From a virus (Duplodnaviria; Heunggongvirae; Uroviricota; Caudoviricetes): a DNA stretch of 46,563 nucleotides. The notes under the pieces were generated by a model. The model was given only the letters and a program-made list of their open reading frames with translations. It made no database searches and was not told the origin of the DNA. Position 1 is the stretch's first letter; each line of letters opens with the position of its first letter. A program made the position numbers and the translations under genes. This document shows positions 16,126-24,564 of this stretch, one piece after another. Where the stretch lies: the IMG/VR virus record IMGVR_UViG_2861038214_000001, positions 1-46,563 of that record. One strand, given 5' to 3'.

Positions 16126-16415
16126 CACAACAGGTAAGAGCATTGAACCCGCAGACCTCGCGGAATTGGTGAAAGGTGCCGCGCAGTGCTCTTATCGTTG
16201 TGGTGAAGCTCAATGGCGAGCTAGCAGATAGGCGGCAGTGAAAATACTAGTCATGTAGCTGACCGCCGCGCGTACTGCAATCGGCAGCGCACCGATGGAA
16301 GCCGGTTCGATTCCGGCCGCCACAACCCAAACTGAGCCGTAGCCACTGGCTATCCTGAATTCATCAGTGACAGTTACGCTGCGGACTTCTACACATGACC
16401 TTCGTGAAAGCGGGT

Positions 16416-16450
16416 GGCAGGAGGTCGCGCTAACAACATCCTGCCGTTTT
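16416..16450 (+). terminator. candidate tR'-like terminator (GGCAGGA/TCCTGCC stem, then GTTTTG)
   Basis: seen in sequence about 120 nt upstream of S. Confidence 0.35.
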
Positions 16451-16570
16451 GCCCGTGCATATCGATCACGAACAAATCTGATTACTAAACACAGTAGCCT
16501 GGATTTGTTCTATCAGTAATCGACCTTATTCCTAATTAAATAGAGCAAATCCCCTTATTGGGGCTAAGAC

Positions 16571-16894
16571 ATGAAGATGCCAGAAAAACATGACCTGTTA
16601 GCCGCCATTCTCGCGGCAAAGGAACAAGGCATCGGGGCAATCCTTGCGTTTGCAATGGCGTACCTTCGCGGCAGATATAATGGCGGTGCGTTTACAAAAA
16701 CAGTAATCGACGCAACGATGTGCGCCATTATCGCCTGGTTCATTCGTGACCTTCTCGACTTCGCCGGACTAAGTAGCAATCTCGCTTATATAACGAGCGT
16801 GTTCATCGGCTACATCGGTACTGACTCGATTGGTTCGCTTATCAAACGCTTCGCTGCTAAAAAAGCCGGAATAGAAGATGGTGGAAATCAATAA
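16571..16894 (+). CDS. S: class I holin, lambda S-type (107 aa, dual-start MKMPEK…)
   Basis: ORF track; sequence matches lambda S as I recall. Confidence 0.9.
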
Positions 16895-17354
16895 TCAACG
16901 TAAGGCGTTCCTCGATATGCTGGCGTGGTCAGAGGGAACTGATAACGGACGTCAGAAAACCAGAAATCATGGTTATGACGTCATTGTTGGCGGAGAGCTA
17001 TTCACTGATTACTCCGATCACCCTCGCAAACTCGTCACGCTAAACCCCAAACTCAAATCAACAGCCGCCGGACGCTACCAGCTTCTTTCCCGTTGGTGGG
17101 ATGCCTATCGTAAGCAGCTTGGCCTGAAAGACTTCTCTCCGAAAAGCCAGGACGCTGTGGCACTGCAACAGATTAAAGAGCGTGGCGCTTTACCGATGAT
17201 TGACCACGGTGATATTCGTCAGGCAATCGACCGTTGCAGCAATATCTGGGCTTCACTGCCGGGGGCTGGTTATGGTCAGTTCGAGCATAAGGCTGACAGC
17301 CTGATTGCAAAATTCAAAGAAGCTGGCGGAACGGTCAGAGAGATTGAGGTATGA
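16878..17354 (+). CDS. R: endolysin, lambda R-type lytic transglycosylase
   Basis: ORF track; sequence matches lambda R. Confidence 0.9.
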
Positions 17355-17809
17355 GCAGAGTAACCGCGATTATCTCCGCTCTGGTTATCTGCATCATCGT
17401 TTGCCTGTCATGGGCTGTTAATCATTACCGTGATAACGCCATCGCCTACAAAGAGCAGCGCGATAACAAGGCCAGTGAACTGGAGCAGGCGACCGCCACC
17501 ATTACTGACATGCAGCAGCGCCAGCGTGATGCAGCAGAACTTGATGCCAGATATACAAAGGAGCTTGCTGATGCTAACGCGACTATCGAAAGTCTCCGTG
17601 CTGATGTTTCTGCTGGTCGTAAGCGCCTGCAAGTCGCCGCCACCTGTGCAAAGTCAACGACCGGAGCCGGCGGCATGGGCGATGGAGAAAGCCCAGGACT
17701 TACAGCAGATGCTGAACTCAATTATTACCGTCTCCGAAGTGGAATCGACAAGATAACCGCACAGGTCAACTACCTGCAGGAATACATCACCACGCAGTGC
17801 CTGAAATAA
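17351..17809 (+). CDS. Rz: i-spanin Rz
   Basis: ORF track; N-terminal TM segment, coiled-coil periplasmic domain. Confidence 0.85.
17571..17756 (+). CDS. Rz1: o-spanin Rz1 (lipoprotein, embedded in +1 frame of Rz)
   Basis: ORF track 17430..17756 trimmed to signal peptide [20 protein letters not shown] with lipobox Cys, Pro-rich mature part. Confidence 0.65.
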
Positions 17810-17811
17810 CA

Positions 17812-17835
17812 GCCTCGCAATAGCGGGGCTTTTTA
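17812..17835 (+). terminator. intrinsic terminator after Rz (GCCTCGC/GCGGGGC hairpin + TTTTT)
   Basis: seen in sequence. Confidence 0.45.
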
Positions 17836-17960
17836 ATGCGTATCGTACACGCAAACCATCGAGAGTCTTTCAGTCGTGAGCCTGAGGAGCGCCGTTAAAG
17901 GTGGCGACCTCTCTCGGGCGGCGTTCCTGTACGACAGGCTCACACCTAAAGGAAAACAGC

Positions 17961-18557
17961 ATGAAAGTTATCAAGTATTGGAAAGTTCAGCTTCTGCAGT
18001 TGTCTCAGCCCTCCAGCAATCTTTCCGGCATTATCAATGCCCGCACTCTGGTCGAAAGCCTGTTGTTTGAGGGGTACTCGAAAGATAAACCGAAAATTAA
18101 CCTCGGTTCCGGAGTAAATATTGAGTTATTTACAGCACCCGATTCGCTGGAAACCCGTATCTTTCGTGACCGCCTCGTTGACAGTGTGCGTTGCTTCCCG
18201 GTGTGTGAAGGTGATGGCGACAAAAGTGAGGGGGTAGACATTACCATCCACCTTGAGCCTCAGATTTCCAAATGCCGAGCCGTCATTGGTGGCGCGGGCG
18301 CAGCAAAGGCGCCAGAAAAAATCCATGACCATGCCTGTATTAACTGCTTCCTTGGTCGCGGTCCGTGCCTTGGTGACTGCCACGTTGCCGACGTTAATAA
18401 GGCTCGCAGCTCCTCCTTCGAAGACGTGGTGAAGCCCGTAATCAAATGGCTTAACGAAAACGCCAACCCTCATACATCAGTGAACATCGACGCAACCAGT
18501 GCTCAGCTGCTTACTGGTGAAATCGGCATTCACACGGAAGAGTTCATTAAGGACTGA
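17961..18557 (+). CDS. hypothetical Cys/His-rich protein (198 aa) between lysis and terminase genes
   Basis: ORF track 17901..18557 trimmed to ATG with AAAGGAAA SD; clusters CFPVC, HDHACINC, CLGDCH suggest metal binding. Confidence 0.6.
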   Translation: MKVIKYWKVQLLQLSQPSSNLSGIINARTLVESLLFEGYSKDKPKINLGSGVNIELFTAPDSLETRIFRDRLVDSVRCFPVCEGDGDKSEGVDITIHLEPQISKCRAVIGGAGAAKAPEKIHDHACINCFLGRGPCLGDCHVADVNKARSSSFEDVVKPVIKWLNENANPHTSVNIDATSAQLLTGEIGIHTEEFIKD

Positions 18558-18617
18558 TCGGGCATTACAGAGCCACTTCAAGAGGTGGCTCGATAATGTC
18601 ACAACGAGGTAAGGATT

Positions 18618-19358
18618 ATGGCAAAACCGGACTGGGGAGCACTGCAACACCAGTTCCTCGCCGAGCATGCCAAAACAGGAATATCCCCGAAAGACTGGTG
18701 CGCAGCGCAGGGACTGAATTACTCATCTGCGAAACGCTATATCAAAGTAACGACTTACGGTGCGAATTCGCAAAAAAAAAGTGCGAACAAATCTGCGAAT
18801 TCGCAGAAGGAGAAAGGCGGGGCTAATAAAAACGGGAAGGTGAAAAAAAACCAGCCCGACACAGGCGCCCACTCAAAATCTCCAGAAACGAAACCGATAC
18901 GCGGATCGCGCACTGCTCCGCCGACGAACGCCTTCCAGCCTGGCAACCAGAATGCATTAAAGCATGGTGGCTATGGTCGCCGGATGCTGCTCTCTGACGC
19001 CATCACCGAAGATGCCCAGATGCTCACGCTCGACGATGAGCTTTTCTGGCTGCGAGCGGCGAGCCTGACAGCGGCAGAGAATATCGGGCGCTGGCAGACA
19101 GAGCTGGAGACAGCCGCCAGCGAGCAGGCCAAAGATCTGCACGACCTCATCTCTCAGGCGCAGAAAGCCATGCATCGCAACACTGCGCGCATTGAGTCGC
19201 TGGAGTACACCAAGGCGGCGATTATCAAGCAGCGCGTTGATGCCGCTTACCGCGAAGCCGCGACCGAAAAGGTTGAGCTCGAAATTGATGTACTGAAAGA
19301 CGGCGACAAGGATAACGCGATCGTCGTGCATAACTCGCTGCCAATACCGGGAAGATAA
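18618..19358 (+). CDS. terminase small subunit
   Basis: ORF track; N-terminal HTH, conserved FQPGNQNALKHGGY motif, position upstream of large subunit. Confidence 0.75.
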   Translation: MAKPDWGALQHQFLAEHAKTGISPKDWCAAQGLNYSSAKRYIKVTTYGANSQKKSANKSANSQKEKGGANKNGKVKKNQPDTGAHSKSPETKPIRGSRTAPPTNAFQPGNQNALKHGGYGRRMLLSDAITEDAQMLTLDDELFWLRAASLTAAENIGRWQTELETAASEQAKDLHDLISQAQKAMHRNTARIESLEYTKAAIIKQRVDAAYREAATEKVELEIDVLKDGDKDNAIVVHNSLPIPGR

Positions 19359-19361
19359 ATC

Positions 19362-20693
19362 ATGGCCGACATTTACCTACCCACGCTACACAACGGGCAG
19401 TTAACGGTCTGGTCTGATTCCTGGGATCACCAGTTGAATGCGGTTCGCTGTGGTCGACGCTGGGGGAAAACCTTCATGCTGTCGAGCGCTGCGGTGACCT
19501 ACGCAACGTCGCAGTTCCGGCGCCCGGGCATGGATATCGAGCTGGGCGGTCGGGTCGGCATCTTCACTGCCGAGTATCGCCAGTACCAGGAGATCTACGA
19601 CAAGCTGGAAGAAATCCTGTTGCCGCTGAAAAAGAGCTTCAGCCGGCAGGAAAAGCGACTGCTGCTGAAGAACGGCGGGAAGATTGACTTCTGGGTCACC
19701 AACGACAACAAACTGGCCGGTCGTGGTCGTGAATATGAAATTATCCTGATCGATGAGGCGGCGTTTACCAAGTCGCCTGAAATGCTGAAGGAAATCTGGC
19801 CGAAGTCGATTAAGCCGACGCTACTGACGACAAAAGGCCGGGCCTACGTATTCTCAACGCCTGACGGTGTGGATGAAGAAAACTTCTTCTATGCCATCTG
19901 CCATAACAAAGACCTCGGCTTCCATGAGCATCACGCGCCGACGTCATCAAACCCCTTCGTTCCTCCCGAGGAGCTGGAGAAAGAGCGACAGAACAACGAT
20001 CCTCGCGTTTTCCGGCAGGAGTTCCTGGCCGAGTTCGTCGACTGGTCCGCTGCGTCGCTGTTCGACGTCCGCAAATGGTTCGAGGGTGAAAACCAGGATC
20101 AGCCTGTCGATTACCCTGAGATGTGTCAGGCCGTCTTCGCTGTCATGGATACCGCAGTTAAGGGCGGTACAGAGCACGACGGCACGGCGGTGATTTACTA
20201 CGCCGTCGACACCCGCCCCGGCATTCAGCGCCTGACTATTCTCGACTGGGATGTGGTGCAGATCGACGGCGCGCTGCTGGAAGAGTGGATTCCGTCTGTT
20301 TTCACCCGGCTGAATGAGCTATCCGGCCAGTGCGTCGCTGTAAATGGCAGCCTCGGCGTTTTCATCGAAGACGCCAGCATGGGAAGCATCCTCCTGCAGA
20401 AAGGTGAAAGCCTGGGATGGCCGGTCAACAAAATTGAATCCGCCCTGACCAGCAAAGGGAAGGACGAGCGCGCCATTATGGCCTCTGGGTATCACTACCG
20501 CGGGCTGGCGAAAATATCCCGATACGCCTACGAGAAGACGGCAGTCTTCAAGGGCGAAACAGCAAACCATCTGCATAAGCAGGTATCACGATTCCACCTT
20601 GCCGATAAGAACGCGCACAAGCGCGCCGACGATTTGCTGGATGATTACACCTACGGGCTGATCATCGCGTTCGGTAGCGGCGACGCACTCTAG
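19362..20693 (+). CDS. terminase large subunit
   Basis: ORF track; ATPase P-loop-like (GRRWGKT) and nuclease domain-sized C-terminus. Confidence 0.85.
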   Translation: MADIYLPTLHNGQLTVWSDSWDHQLNAVRCGRRWGKTFMLSSAAVTYATSQFRRPGMDIELGGRVGIFTAEYRQYQEIYDKLEEILLPLKKSFSRQEKRLLLKNGGKIDFWVTNDNKLAGRGREYEIILIDEAAFTKSPEMLKEIWPKSIKPTLLTTKGRAYVFSTPDGVDEENFFYAICHNKDLGFHEHHAPTSSNPFVPPEELEKERQNNDPRVFRQEFLAEFVDWSAASLFDVRKWFEGENQDQPVDYPEMCQAVFAVMDTAVKGGTEHDGTAVIYYAVDTRPGIQRLTILDWDVVQIDGALLEEWIPSVFTRLNELSGQCVAVNGSLGVFIEDASMGSILLQKGESLGWPVNKIESALTSKGKDERAIMASGYHYRGLAKISRYAYEKTAVFKGETANHLHKQVSRFHLADKNAHKRADDLLDDYTYGLIIAFGSGDAL

Positions 20694-20704: not shown

Positions 20705-22120
20705 ATGAACGAAGATGATATCGCAATCGGCAGTTGCTCGCCGGAGCTGATCACGCTCCTGGACAGCGATGACATTCAGCCGGGTATGTCGGCTGGCTAT
20801 CAGACCTGCAAAACGATTTACCTCTTCCACCCGTTGGGCGGGAAAATGGTAGATCGCCCGATCAAGATGGCGATGAACGAGTCGCGCACGGTTCACATTT
20901 CGCAGGCGTATGGCATTGAGCAGCGTCTCCGCGATGCATTTGAGCGGGAGTGGAAAGCACTGGGCGCCGATAAGCACATCGCTAATGCGGCGCGCATCTC
21001 TCGCATTTACGGTGTTTCGGCGATCGCAATGCTGGTTGATAACCAGGAGCCGTCCTCTGCGGTGGACTACCGCACGCTGTATAAGCACAACGTGACATTC
21101 AACATTCTCGACCCGCTGAACACTGCCGGAAGCATCGTCCTGAACCAGGATCCGAACGCGCAGGACTTTCAGAAGGTCGACGGGATCAGAGTGGCGGGCA
21201 AGCCGTATCACAAATCCCGCTGTGTTGTGCAACAGAACGAGGACCCGATTTATCTGGCCTATAACTCTGCTGCCTTTGGCTTTACCGGTCGCAGCGTTTA
21301 CCAGCGCGCTCTGTTCCCGCTGAAATCCTTCATCCAGACCATGCGCACCGATGACATGGTTTCCGTGAAGGGTGGCTTGCTGGTAACGAAGATTCAGGGA
21401 CCGAGCTCAGTCGTCAACAACATGATGCAAAAGCTCAGCGGCATCAAACGAATGATGCTGAAGCGAGGGAAGACAGGCGAAGTCCTGCAGATCGGCGCAA
21501 ATGACAGCATCGAATCCATCGACCTGAGCAACCTGGAAAAGCCGCTCGACTCCTCCCGGAATCACATTCTGGAGAATATCGCTGCGGCAGCTGACATGCC
21601 GGCTATCATTCTGAACTCGGAAACATTCGCCCAGGGCTTCGGCGAGGGGACGGAAGACGCTCGATCTGTTGCAGTCTACATCGACAACATCCGCGAGTGG
21701 CTTGAGCCGCTGTATGACTATTTCATCCGTATTTGCCAGTATCGCGCCTGGAGCATTGAGTTTTTCAATTCTCTGCGTGCTGACTTCCCGGAGCTTAAAA
21801 ACACGTACAGCCTGTATTTCTCCTCATGGATTAACAACTTCGAATATCGCTGGCCGTCATCCCTGAAAGAGCCGGAAAGCGAAAAAGTGAAGGTCGACGA
21901 AATCCGCTTTAAGGCCATCGTCAGCATGCTGGAAGTCCTTCTCCCGCAGGTCAACACGGATGATGAGAACCGCGCTCTTCTTATCGAGTGGGCGCAGACC
22001 AACGCGAACGCTAACGAAAGCCTGTTCCCGCAGCGGCTCGATCTCGATATCGACTCTCTAAAGGCTAATCGGCCTGAACAGCCACGGGATGAAGAGCCCG
22101 GCGGCGAGATGATGCTATGA
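20705..22120 (+). CDS. portal protein (putative)
   Basis: ORF track; size and position after terminase. Confidence 0.7.
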   Translation: MNEDDIAIGSCSPELITLLDSDDIQPGMSAGYQTCKTIYLFHPLGGKMVDRPIKMAMNESRTVHISQAYGIEQRLRDAFEREWKALGADKHIANAARISRIYGVSAIAMLVDNQEPSSAVDYRTLYKHNVTFNILDPLNTAGSIVLNQDPNAQDFQKVDGIRVAGKPYHKSRCVVQQNEDPIYLAYNSAAFGFTGRSVYQRALFPLKSFIQTMRTDDMVSVKGGLLVTKIQGPSSVVNNMMQKLSGIKRMMLKRGKTGEVLQIGANDSIESIDLSNLEKPLDSSRNHILENIAAAADMPAIILNSETFAQGFGEGTEDARSVAVYIDNIREWLEPLYDYFIRICQYRAWSIEFFNSLRADFPELKNTYSLYFSSWINNFEYRWPSSLKEPESEKVKVDEIRFKAIVSMLEVLLPQVNTDDENRALLIEWAQTNANANESLFPQRLDLDIDSLKANRPEQPRDEEPGGEMML

Positions 22121-22950: not shown

Positions 22951-24564
22951 GTGGCTATTTTTGGCAGCGGGATAATGTTCCGTCAGGGGAAGTTCGTCTT
23001 CCTGATCCAGCGCTCGGATGATGGCACATGGTGCCAGCCGGGCGGGACGATAGAGCCGGGAGAGTTAGCCATAGACGCCGCACGGCGCGAGGTGCTGGAG
23101 GAAACAGGCTATCAGTACGATGGCCCGCTGACGCCGCACAGCGTACATGGTGACTACCTGACCTACCGCGCCGACGTGCCGGAGCAATTCGAAGCGAAGA
23201 TAAACGACGAATCGCTGGCCGCCGGATGGTTCCATATTGACGATCTGCCAAAGCCGCTTCATCAGCCATTCGCTGAAATGCTGGCGCAGCAGGCGCTCAA
23301 CGAAACCGACGTGGCCGCGCTCATCGCTGACGGAACGCTCAGCAGCCCGCAATATTTTTACAACATGTGGATGTTCGCCATCCGGGTGACCGGAACAGGG
23401 GTTGCCTGGCGATCTGCAGATCAGGAGATGACGTTCCGTAACCCGGACGACTATCTCACCCCTGAATTTCTCCAGCGGGTAGCTGGCGTACCACTTATCT
23501 GGCTTCACCCCGAAAAAAGAACACTTGATAGCGACGAGTTCTCAAAGCGCGTTATTGGCACCCTGACAAATGCCTGGGTTGCCGATAAGGGCGAAGTGTG
23601 GGCCGTTGCGCGTGTGTACGACGCCGAAGCTGCTGAAATTATGGCAACAAGGCAATTAAGCACCTCGCCAACTGTGAAGTTCTCAGAGGTTGCTCAATCA
23701 ATCATTGTCGACGGTCAGCCTCTACTGGTGGAGCCATCCCCCGAGCTGCTCGACCACGTTGCAATTTGTGAACAGGGCGTGTGGGACAAGCTCCTTGCCC
23801 CTACCGGTGTTAAATCTGATTCCATTCCTGAAGAGGCTGAAAAGATGGACGAGGAAAAAATCGTAGCGCTGATTAATAAGGCGATCGATGCGCGTTTGGC
23901 TAAGGCCGACGAAGAGAAGGAAGCGAAAGCCAAGGCTGACGCCGAAGAGGCCGCCAAGAAAGAAAAGGCTGACGCAGAAGACAAAGAAGCGGAAGAGGCG
24001 AAAGCTAAAGCCGACGCGGAAGAGAAAGCCGCGAAGGAAAAAGCTGATGCTGAAGCCAAAGAAAAGGCGGATGCCGAAGAGGCTGAGAAAATGGCAAAAG
24101 AAAAAGCCGACTCTCAAATCCTCCAGGAAATTGCTGAGCTTCGCTCCCGCATTCCTACCGAACTGAGCGACGAAGAGCGCAACGAAGTTGCAGAAGCGCA
24201 GGTGAAAGCCGATAGCGTCTTCTCCAGCTTTGGCAAACGCGCCCCGATCCCGCTGTCCGGTGAAAAACCGATGGCGTATCGCCGCCGTCTGATGATTCAA
24301 CTGCAGGAGCATTCTCCGGACTACAAAGCCGTCGATCTCTCTGCCATCGCTGATTCTCAACTGCTGAGCACTGCCGAAAAGCATATCTACGCTGATGCGC
24401 AGAAGGCGGCCAGCCTGTCAGTTGGTCCCGGTATGCTGCGCGAGATTAAGCGCGCCGATGCAACCGGTCGCCAGATCAGCACCTTTGAAGGCGATCCCGC
24501 CGTCACCTGGGCGCCGTTCCAGTCTGGCAAGCGTCAGGTCACCAGTTTTAACAACCAGGCTTAA
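22951..24564 (+). CDS. NUDIX hydrolase domain fused to head protease/scaffold-like protein (537 aa)
   Basis: ORF track; complete Nudix box G-x5-E-x7-REV-x-EE-x-GY ([24 protein letters not shown]) at residues about 30-53; central domain of unknown fold; KAKADAEE-type coiled-coil repeats; sits where protease/scaffold normally lies. Confidence 0.7.
23880..24125 (+). repeat. in-frame imperfect tandem repeats encoding (E/K)-A-K-A-D-A-E-E heptad-like units
   Basis: repeated GCnGAnGCnGAAGAG-type units seen in DNA and protein. Confidence 0.7.

What the first reader, a model, noticed from the sequence alone, without database searches (positions are those of the whole stretch)
17810..18557. Orphan Cys/His-rich protein between the lysis cassette and terminase
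After a terminator following Rz, a 198-aa protein with several Cys/His clusters (CFPVC, HDHACINC, CLGDCH) precedes terS. It lacks the H-N-H spacing of the endonucleases often found at this position and matches no family I recognise.
Basis: partly seen in the sequence, partly recalled or inferred. Interest (0 to 1): 0.5.

Follow-up and report, generated by a model that had tools for sequence, protein, structure and literature searches.

The report
Mosaic phage accessory protein, function unknown
The gene is real and is not an HNH nuclease; it encodes a patchwork of small shuffling modules, including an optional zinc-type cassette and a widespread ~50-residue end domain of unknown function, and it sits in a phage accessory slot where a counter-defence role is the best guess but remains unproven.

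Summary
The 198-aa ORF (17961-18557, +) is real. It follows Rz and a terminator-like hairpin and precedes terS, in a lambdoid prophage identical to E. coli WI1.

It is not an orphan. It has hundreds of homologues, all annotated hypothetical (PHROG 16206 and 4621, function unknown). Pfam, NCBIfam, PADLOC, PDB sequence search and fold searches gave no hit.

The protein is a string of four modules:
- an N-terminal beta domain, found only in Enterobacterales prophages;
- a disordered spacer;
- a conserved cassette, IHDHxCxNCF…GPCLGxC[HN];
- a ~50-aa C-terminal domain.

The Cys/His cassette is optional: about half of the family lacks it. CFPVC is not conserved. The modules occur alone and in permuted orders.

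A Zn–C unit 74% identical to this one is fused to a Tad2-like anti-Thoeris domain in other prophages. The C-domain is almost always terminal, ends in Asp and is the most constrained part.

The slot carries an unrelated membrane protein in Klebsiella phage GZ7. A conserved hairpin in the leader pairs with part of the Shine-Dalgarno sequence.

Best reading: a dispensable, late-transcribed, modular accessory protein, probably for counter-defence or host manipulation. It is not an HNH nuclease or a packaging factor. The function is inferred, not shown.

The parts
17811..17835 (+). Intrinsic-terminator-like hairpin (AGCCTCGC-AATA-GCGGGGCT) followed by TTTTT, one base after the Rz stop codon
   Evidence: Consensus scan. 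The sequence is conserved in related loci and in phage GZ7.
17867..17951 (+). Conserved structured leader. It is a long hairpin whose base pairs CUUU (17867-17870) with AAAG (17948-17951), which is part of the Shine-Dalgarno sequence AAAGGA (17948-17953).
   Evidence: MFE -63.9 kcal/mol, z = -4.6. Present in at least 45 related loci, including GZ7 where the cargo gene is unrelated. 99.7% of cells are paired and 2 pairs show compensatory changes. No Rfam match.
17961..18557 (+). CDS of 198 aa plus stop codon: the mosaic accessory protein
   Evidence: Homologues.
17961..18212 (+). N-domain (aa 1-84). Predicted five-stranded beta domain with invariant W7, G38-Y39 and P80, and a variable loop at aa 16-30.
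   Evidence: Alignments A1 and A3. AF2 pLDDT about 80-87. Found only in Enterobacterales prophages. Not found in 50,697 phage records.
18213..18314 (+). Spacer, 'cassette A' (aa 85-118, DKSEGVDITIHLEPQISKCRAVIGGAGAAKAPE). Predicted disordered, and present or absent among relatives.
   Evidence: pLDDT below 40. Presence and absence seen in A1. pN/pS 0.5-1.0 for the middle region, which also includes the Zn cassette.
18315..18398 (+). Cys/His cassette (aa 119-146): I-H-D-H-[AS]-C-x-N-C-F-x3-G-P-C-L-G-x-C-[HN]-V-x-D-x-N. Candidate ligands are C126, C129, C136 and C140, plus H122, H124 and H141. Presumed zinc knuckle.
   Evidence: Motif table from 57 distinct sequences. Optional module. Occurs in other module orders and other fusions. 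AF2 pLDDT only 55-65.
18399..18554 (+). C-domain (aa 147-198): a long helix, the NPH motif, a beta-hairpin and the tail ...TxEF[IL]KD-COOH. Invariant H171. Widespread, and often a stand-alone protein of 51-61 aa.
   Evidence: PHROG 4621. Representative search. Alignments A2 and A4. AF2 pLDDT 82-88. Terminal in 378 of 394 proteins, with a C-terminal Asp in about 95%. pN/pS 0.11-0.20.
18570..18591 (+). Small hairpin (GAGCCAC-TTCAAGAG-GTGGCTC) between the stop codon and the terS ribosome-binding site. It lies in the downstream flank that is shared with GZ7.
   Evidence: Read from the sequence. The flank 18579-18636 matches GZ7 although the cargo gene differs.

Best explanation
This is a dispensable accessory gene in the variable slot between the lysis cassette and terS of a lambdoid prophage.

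It encodes a soluble cytoplasmic 'beads-on-a-string' protein built from four modules that evolve and recombine independently:
- an Enterobacterales-specific N-terminal beta domain;
- a disordered spacer;
- an optional C4(+His) metal-binding knuckle;
- a widespread ~50-aa C-terminal alpha/beta domain.

The C-terminal domain is the constant, most constrained end of the whole superfamily.

No sigma-70 promoter is detectable upstream. The gene is therefore most likely transcribed with the late operon, by Q-antiterminated read-through of the terminator after Rz (inferred). Its translation is probably limited by a conserved leader hairpin that pairs with part of the Shine-Dalgarno sequence (inferred).

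The most likely function is counter-defence or host manipulation by binding, not catalysis. In this reading each module is a small independent binder. The C-domain would act as a self-sufficient inhibitor or assembly unit, and the upstream modules would add specificities, as in a miniature polyvalent protein.

What is shown: the anatomy, the modularity, the position in the slot, the absence of HNH features, and the fusion of the same Zn-C unit to a Tad2-like domain.

What is inferred: the timing of expression, metal binding, and the counter-defence role.
For: - The slot is variable. Phage GZ7 keeps both flanks at about 90% identity but carries an unrelated 142-aa membrane protein. The identical 198-aa protein also precedes a different terminase module (L020).
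- The gene is rare: 10 of 5,426 complete E. coli genomes. Frameshifted copies exist (P0125, P0386).
- The modules occur alone and in permuted orders: N-C, Zn-C, Zn-E-C, B-Zn-C, E-B-Zn-C, Zn-E-B-C, N-Zn-E-B-C and C alone.
- A Zn-C unit 74% identical to this one is fused to a Tad2-like domain (PF11195, E = 3e-22). Tad2/DUF2829 sequesters the Thoeris signal (bioRxiv 10.1101/2023.05.01.538930).
- C-only genes lie in the usual accessory slots: next to N, the repressor, Gam, RecT or ERF, or next to lysis genes and terS.
- There is no transmembrane segment.
- pN/pS is 0.11-0.20 in the C-domain and 0.4-0.5 in the N-domain.
- No promoter is detected, a terminator-like hairpin lies upstream, and the leader is structured.
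Against: - No member of the family has been tested, and no homology or fold match links the N- or C-domain to any characterised protein.
- The Tad2 link is a single fusion architecture. It is guilt by association, and the window protein itself has no Tad2 domain.
- Late expression is an odd time for a counter-defence protein, unless it is packaged into virions or acts against late-triggered defences.
- One relative fuses the C-domain to an HTH, which fits an oligomerisation or regulatory role equally well.
- In Salmonella and Serratia the N-C gene overlaps the spanin gene, which could point to a role in lysis.
- The AF2 model is only moderate (mean pLDDT 67.6), and the afdb50 library could not be searched.
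Confidence: 0.4

Rival explanations
1. It is a terminase-associated HNH-type endonuclease or another packaging accessory factor, like HK97 gp74, placed next to terS to assist DNA cleavage.
For: The gene lies immediately upstream of terS in most Enterobacterales loci. The cassette is Cys/His-rich with an HDH triplet.
Against: There is no HNH or nuclease profile hit at E<=1. No beta-beta-alpha element is predicted in aa 119-146. Half of the family lacks the cassette altogether. The identical protein is found with a different terminase set, separated from it by two antisense genes (L020). In Serratia it is separated from terS by three other genes. C-only relatives sit in early regions. GZ7 uses a related terS without this gene.
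Confidence: 0.04
2. It is the last gene of the lysis cassette and modulates lysis, for example its timing or spanin or endolysin activity.
For: The N-C genes overlap or abut the spanin stop codon in Salmonella and Serratia prophages. The identical protein stays with the lysis cassette when the terminase module changes.
Against: There is no signal peptide or membrane segment (maximum KD19 score 0.8). The window copy is separated from Rz by a terminator-like hairpin and a 151-nt leader. Zn-C and Tad2-Zn-C versions lie antisense between terL and the portal. C-only versions lie in early regions.
Confidence: 0.1
3. It is a regulator. The C-domain would be an oligomerisation domain and the zinc knuckle or other N-terminal modules would bind nucleic acid. 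Stand-alone C-domains would act as anti-repressor-like competitors.
For: One relative is an HTH_3-C fusion (P0253). Several relatives carry zinc-ribbon-like CxxC...CxxC segments upstream of the C-domain. C-only genes lie near the repressor and N regions.
Against: Only 1 of 59 multi-domain representatives has an HTH. The domains carry no strongly basic surface: pI is 8.7 for the N-domain and 5.2 for the C-domain. No DNA-binding fold was found. Free permutation of the module order is unusual for a regulator.
Confidence: 0.15
4. It is a virion-packaged, injected effector. The constant C-domain would target variable cargo modules to the capsid or portal, so that they enter the next host with the DNA, as proposed for polyvalent proteins.
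For: The gene lies in the late operon next to the head genes. It has a constant C-terminal domain with variable N-terminal modules. Polyvalent proteins are proposed to be late-expressed and injected (PMC5512222).
Against: Many C-only genes lie in early replication or recombination regions. Nothing links the C-domain to any head protein. The same C-domain occurs with several different head modules.
Confidence: 0.1
5. It is a decaying or functionless passenger ORF.
For: It is rare in E. coli. Frameshifted copies exist. The middle of the protein evolves almost neutrally.
Against: The C-domain is under purifying selection (pN/pS 0.11-0.20). The family is spread over many genera and metagenomes. 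The leader and ribosome-binding site are conserved.
Confidence: 0.05

Closest known systems
PHROG 16206 and PHROG 4621 (phage protein families of unknown function)
   Same: The whole protein matches PHROG 16206 (E = 4e-58) and the C-domain matches PHROG 4621 (E = 8e-7).
   Different: The PHROG 16206 profile is 137 residues long, which corresponds to the minimal N-C form. The window protein carries about 60 extra residues, the spacer and the Cys/His cassette. Neither PHROG has any functional annotation.
Tad2 / DUF2829 (PF11195), phage sponge for the Thoeris gcADPR signal
   Same: A Zn-C unit 74% identical to aa 121-198 of this protein is fused to a Tad2-like domain in other prophages. Both are small accessory phage proteins.
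   Different: The window protein has no Tad2 domain. Its N-domain is unrelated. No ligand binding is shown for any of its modules.
Polyvalent proteins of phages and conjugative elements (Iyer et al. 2017, PMC5512222)
   Same: Several unrelated modules sit in one polypeptide, with freely varying architecture, and the gene is encoded among late genes.
   Different: Polyvalent proteins are usually large and contain recognisable enzymatic domains. This protein is 198 aa, all its modules are of unknown function, and none looks enzymatic. Packaging or injection is untested.
HNH endonucleases next to terS (for example HK97 gp74; own knowledge)
   Same: The position just upstream of the terminase genes, and the presence of Cys and His residues.
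   Different: There is no HNH profile match, no predicted beta-beta-alpha-metal core, and the Cys/His cassette is dispensable in the family.
Lambdoid morons and accessory genes in the Rz-terS / Rz-cos interval (for example lambda bor; own knowledge)
   Same: The gene occupies a hot spot where unrelated genes replace each other between conserved flanks.
   Different: No promoter of its own was detected, and the terminator lies upstream of the gene rather than downstream. Instead the gene shares a conserved structured leader with the alternative cargo gene.

Membership tests
HNH endonuclease (His-Me finger) | Significant match to an HNH or other nuclease sequence profile | tested here: not met
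   No Pfam or NCBIfam family at E<=1. No PDB sequence hit.
HNH endonuclease (His-Me finger) | A beta-beta-alpha-metal core carrying the catalytic His...Asn...His | tested here: not met
HNH endonuclease (His-Me finger) | Catalytic residues conserved throughout the family | tested here: not met
   The whole Cys/His cassette is absent from 73 of 147 retrieved N...C proteins.
Tad2-like (PF11195/DUF2829) | Profile match above the Pfam gathering score | tested here: not met
   None in the window protein. The match is present only in relatives with the architecture Tad2-Zn-C (79 bits against a cut-off of 25).
PHROG 16206 / PHROG 4621 | Profile match | tested here: met
   E = 3.9e-58 over aa 1-198 and E = 8.3e-7 over aa 146-197.
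Zinc knuckle / small Cys4 metal-binding module | Four invariant Cys with fixed spacing (C-x2-C-x6-C-x3-C) | tested here: met
   All four Cys are invariant in 57 distinct cassette sequences, as is His-2; His-4 is present in 56 of 57.
Zinc knuckle / small Cys4 metal-binding module | Stoichiometric bound metal | not testable with these tools
   Needs ICP-MS or a PAR assay on purified protein.
Moron (independently transcribed insert in a lambdoid late operon) | Present or absent, or replaced, between conserved flanking genes in related phages | tested here: met
   GZ7 and the RCIP phages share both flanks but carry a different gene. L020 has other genes downstream.
Moron (independently transcribed insert in a lambdoid late operon) | Own promoter upstream and own terminator downstream | tested here: not met
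   There is no sigma-70-like site on the + strand in 16300-19500. The only good terminator-like hairpin lies upstream of the gene.
Polyvalent protein (Iyer et al. 2017) | Two or more domains of disparate biochemical activity in one polypeptide | tested here: inconclusive
   Four independently shuffling modules are shown, but none has a known activity.
Polyvalent protein (Iyer et al. 2017) | [quoted passage not shown] | not testable with these tools
   Needs virion proteomics.
Known anti-phage defence system component (PADLOC) | Profile match | tested here: not met
   No PADLOC family at E<=1 for the window protein or for two longer relatives.

The most novel reading that the evidence does not exclude
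The ~50-aa C-terminal domain (helix, NPH motif, hairpin, ...EF[IL]KD-COOH) would be a new and widespread family of phage immune-evasion modules. It could be a small oligomeric sponge or an inhibitor of a host defence component. Phages would concatenate it at will with other mini-modules: the zinc knuckle, the N-domain, modules B and E, and Tad2. The 198-aa protein would then be a late-expressed, multi-target 'mini-polyvalent' counter-defence protein whose translation is gated by a conserved Shine-Dalgarno-sequestering leader.
Probability: 0.22. Interest if true: 0.7.

Novelty: new variant of a known kind. Interest (0 to 1): 0.42.

Why it matters
If the counter-defence reading holds, the C-domain would be a large, untouched family of very small phage effectors. 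It has at least 473 representatives at 50% identity and is almost absent from cultured phages. The module-shuffling architecture would show how temperate phages assemble multi-target evasion proteins from parts of 25-85 residues.

The Tad2-Zn-C fusion gives a direct experimental entry point: test it against Thoeris, CBASS and related defences with and without the Zn-C part.

Even without that, the result is useful. It removes a tempting mis-annotation (HNH or terminase accessory). It shows that the eye-catching Cys/His cluster is an optional cassette and not the core of the protein. It also describes a conserved leader element shared by different cargo genes in the Rz-terS slot.

Tried and rejected
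- Profile searches of the window protein against Pfam, NCBIfam and PADLOC found nothing.
- PDB sequence searches with the family profile and with the C-domain profile found nothing significant.
- The first AF2 run, on 27 close homologues, gave pLDDT 40 and was unusable. A second run on 142 diverse sequences gave usable domains.
- The afdb50 library was unavailable.
- The search for related loci with the 90-sequence C-domain alignment failed because the alignment was too diverse. A 14-sequence subset worked.
- Pfam and PHROG scans of partner modules B, E, X and others found nothing known, apart from Tad2-like, HTH_3 and Phage_gp49_66.
- tblastn of C-only proteins against 50,697 phage records found three distinct phages, all unannotated or hypothetical at that gene.
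- Literature searches for the PHROG ids and the protein accession found nothing.
- Rfam found nothing for the leader.
- I considered a HicA-like or dsRBD-like fold for the C-domain from memory and dropped it, because no such structure appeared in the fold searches.
- I considered the upstream GTG start at 17901 (218 aa) and rejected it. It lies inside the leader hairpin, all homologues start at MK[VL]IKYW, and the Shine-Dalgarno sequence precedes 17961.

Full report
**Observation.** The window carries an ORF at 17961-18557 (+). It starts with ATG, follows an AAAGGA Shine-Dalgarno sequence and encodes 198 aa. The window is 100% identical to a prophage of E. coli WI1, where the same ORF is annotated as hypothetical protein WP_085543229.1.

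Upstream lie Q, a lambda-family holin, a GH24 endolysin and Rz with embedded Rz1. Downstream lie a terS-like gene, terL (Terminase_6N) and a Phage_portal_3 portal. One base after the Rz stop codon there is a terminator-like hairpin: 17811-17830, 8 pairs, followed by TTTTT.

**Not an orphan, but uncharacterised.** The protein has no Pfam, NCBIfam or PADLOC match at E<=1 and no PDB sequence relative. It does match PHROG 16206 (E = 4e-58), and its last 50 residues match PHROG 4621. Both are families of unknown function.

The 5.8-billion-protein search found 278 homologous clusters, all annotated hypothetical, from E. coli, Klebsiella, Citrobacter and Raoultella. The exhaustive representative search found 473 clusters at 50% identity.

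The gene is rare in E. coli: 10 of 5,426 complete genomes. Its N-terminal part is absent from all 50,697 cultured-phage records.

**Mosaic anatomy.** Alignment of relatives 166-289 aa long shows a conserved N-domain (aa 1-84) and a conserved C-domain (aa about 147-198). The middle is a set of cassettes that come and go.

The window protein has the order N, spacer A, Cys/His cassette ('Zn'), C. Across the retrieved proteins and viral contigs the same modules occur in these forms:
- alone: N about 80 aa, B about 79 aa, C 51-61 aa;
- N-terminal forms: N-C, N-Zn-C, N-B-Zn-C, N-Zn-E-C, N-Zn-E-B-C, N-B-X-Zn-C;
- forms without N: Zn-C, Zn-E-C, B-Zn-C, E-Zn-C, E-B-Zn-C, Zn-E-B-C, B-C.

The module order is permutable, but C is almost always last. 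It is terminal in 378 of 394 proteins, and about 95% of those end in Asp (KD in 289).

The N-domain family is confined to Enterobacterales prophages: E. coli, Klebsiella, Salmonella and Serratia.

**The Cys/His cluster.** The central cassette has the consensus I-H-D-H-[AS]-C-[VI]-N-C-F-x-[DG]-[KR]-G-P-C-L-G-[DE]-C-[HN]-V-x-D-x-N. All four Cys and His-2 are invariant in 57 distinct sequences, and His-4 is present in 56 of them. The clustering is unlikely by composition (p about 0.005).

It is probably a small metal-binding knuckle, but it is optional. 74 retrieved N...C proteins carry it and 73 do not.

CFPVC is not a conserved site. C82 is Tyr in most relatives and C78 varies.

**Structure.** With 142 diverse sequences, AF2 gave a mean pLDDT of 67.6.
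- N-domain: pLDDT about 80-87, five beta strands.
- Residues 85-121: disordered.
- Cys/His cassette: low confidence.
- C-domain: pLDDT 82-88, with a long helix, a beta-hairpin and a short terminal turn.

The protein has no membrane segment.

**Selection.** Among close relatives, pN/pS is 0.11-0.20 in the C-domain, 0.42-0.51 in the N-domain and 0.5-1.0 in the middle. The counts are small. Frameshifted copies exist in some genomes (P0125, P0386).

**Context elsewhere.**
- In Salmonella the N-C gene overlaps the end of the spanin gene and precedes terS.
- In Serratia it starts at the o-spanin stop codon and is separated from terS by a ParB-methylase gene and two further ORFs.
- The identical 198-aa protein occurs after the same lysis cassette but before a different terminase, with two antisense genes in between (L020).
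- Klebsiella phage GZ7 keeps both flanks of the slot at about 90% identity but carries an unrelated 142-aa membrane protein there.
- Zn-C and Tad2-Zn-C genes lie antisense next to terL, between terL and the portal at least for Zn-C, in another prophage type.
- Stand-alone C genes lie after DnaB or RecT, or next to the repressor, N, Gam or ERF, or next to lysis genes.

These are the classical accessory-gene slots of temperate phages.

**The one link to known biology.** In prophage contigs L048, L050 and L123, a Zn-C unit 74% identical to aa 121-198 of the window protein is fused to a Tad2-like domain (PF11195, E = 3e-22, 79 bits against a cut-off of 25). Tad2/DUF2829 proteins sequester the Thoeris signal (bioRxiv 10.1101/2023.05.01.538930).

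Other recognisable partners are a single HTH_3 and a single Phage_gp49_66. All other partner modules are unknown to Pfam and PHROGs.

**Leader.** The 151 nt between Rz and the ATG are conserved in at least 45 related loci, whatever the cargo architecture, and also in GZ7. After the terminator-like hairpin, a long hairpin (17867-17951) folds with z = -4.6. Its base pairs CUUU with AAAG of the Shine-Dalgarno sequence.

In 18 distinct sequences 99.7% of cells are paired, and two upper-stem pairs change on both sides (G-C to A-U, and G-C to C-G). These are probably few independent events, and the basal stem never varies. Rfam has no match. No sigma-70-like promoter was found on the + strand.

The likely consequences are late-operon read-through transcription and restrained translation. 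An RNase III site or a DNA-level palindrome would fit the data equally well. These points are inferred.

**Interpretation.** The evidence excludes, as far as computation can, an HNH nuclease or an obligatory packaging factor. It shows a dispensable, modular accessory protein.

The most likely mechanism is binding-based counter-defence or host manipulation by a chain of small independent modules. The constrained, always-terminal C-domain would be the constant functional or assembly unit. My confidence in this is about 0.4.

It rests on the position in the slot, the shuffling, the Tad2 fusion, and analogy with polyvalent proteins (PMC5512222).

The rivals are a regulatory or oligomerisation role, a lysis-associated role, a virion-targeting role, and decay. 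None is excluded.

**Novelty.** The family is in databases only as 'hypothetical', and I found no paper on it. It is best described as a new variant of a known kind, a modular phage accessory protein. The unresolved C-domain could turn out to be something new.

Noticed in passing
window 17867-17951: A conserved long hairpin in the leader whose base pairs with part of the Shine-Dalgarno sequence. It is shared by many cargo architectures and by phage GZ7, whose cargo gene is unrelated. It could be a translational gate, an RNase III site or a recombination boundary.
   Followed up: partly
window 20705-22120: RefSeq names this 471-aa protein 'anti-CBASS protein Acb1 family protein'. Pfam identifies it as a Phage_portal_3 portal (E = 2e-20), and it sits where the portal gene belongs. 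The RefSeq name is probably misleading.
   Followed up: partly
window 22951-24564: A 537-aa head-module protein combines an N-terminal NUDIX domain (E = 3e-16) with DUF2213/Pa193_gp24. The same fusion is conserved in the Salmonella relatives. A nucleotide hydrolase built into a head protein may deserve its own look.
   Followed up: no
L002 2661-3089 (Klebsiella phage GZ7): The same slot, with the same leader and the same downstream flank, carries an unrelated 142-aa protein with several hydrophobic segments. It may be a superinfection-exclusion-type membrane protein.
   Followed up: no
L048 3656-4162, L050, L123 (IMG/VR prophage contigs): A Tad2-like domain is fused to the Zn-C unit, and the gene lies antisense next to terL. 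The shorter Zn-C gene (P0277, found in 607 index blocks, Salmonella) occupies the same place between terL and the portal in a prophage with Bbp16/Bbp19/GP7-type head genes.
   Followed up: partly
window 17961-18557 compared with L023 3566-4162: These two near-identical copies differ by 5 nonsynonymous and 0 synonymous changes, 4 of them in the N-domain. This hints at diversifying change, but the numbers are too small to test.
   Followed up: no
P0125, P0386 (E. coli / Logan assemblies); window +1 frame 18253-18432: Some genomes carry frameshifted copies that read into the +1 frame (...SMTMPVLTASLVAVRALV...). This suggests that the gene decays in some prophages.
   Followed up: no
P0123, P0131, P0391, P0398: The N-domain also occurs with a different C-terminal module (...GEIFSIVKQVEDEMVGKPLTAETAFSFAEEVKKRVADLIVIEVA) in place of the C-domain. 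The N-domain is therefore a mobile module too.
   Followed up: no
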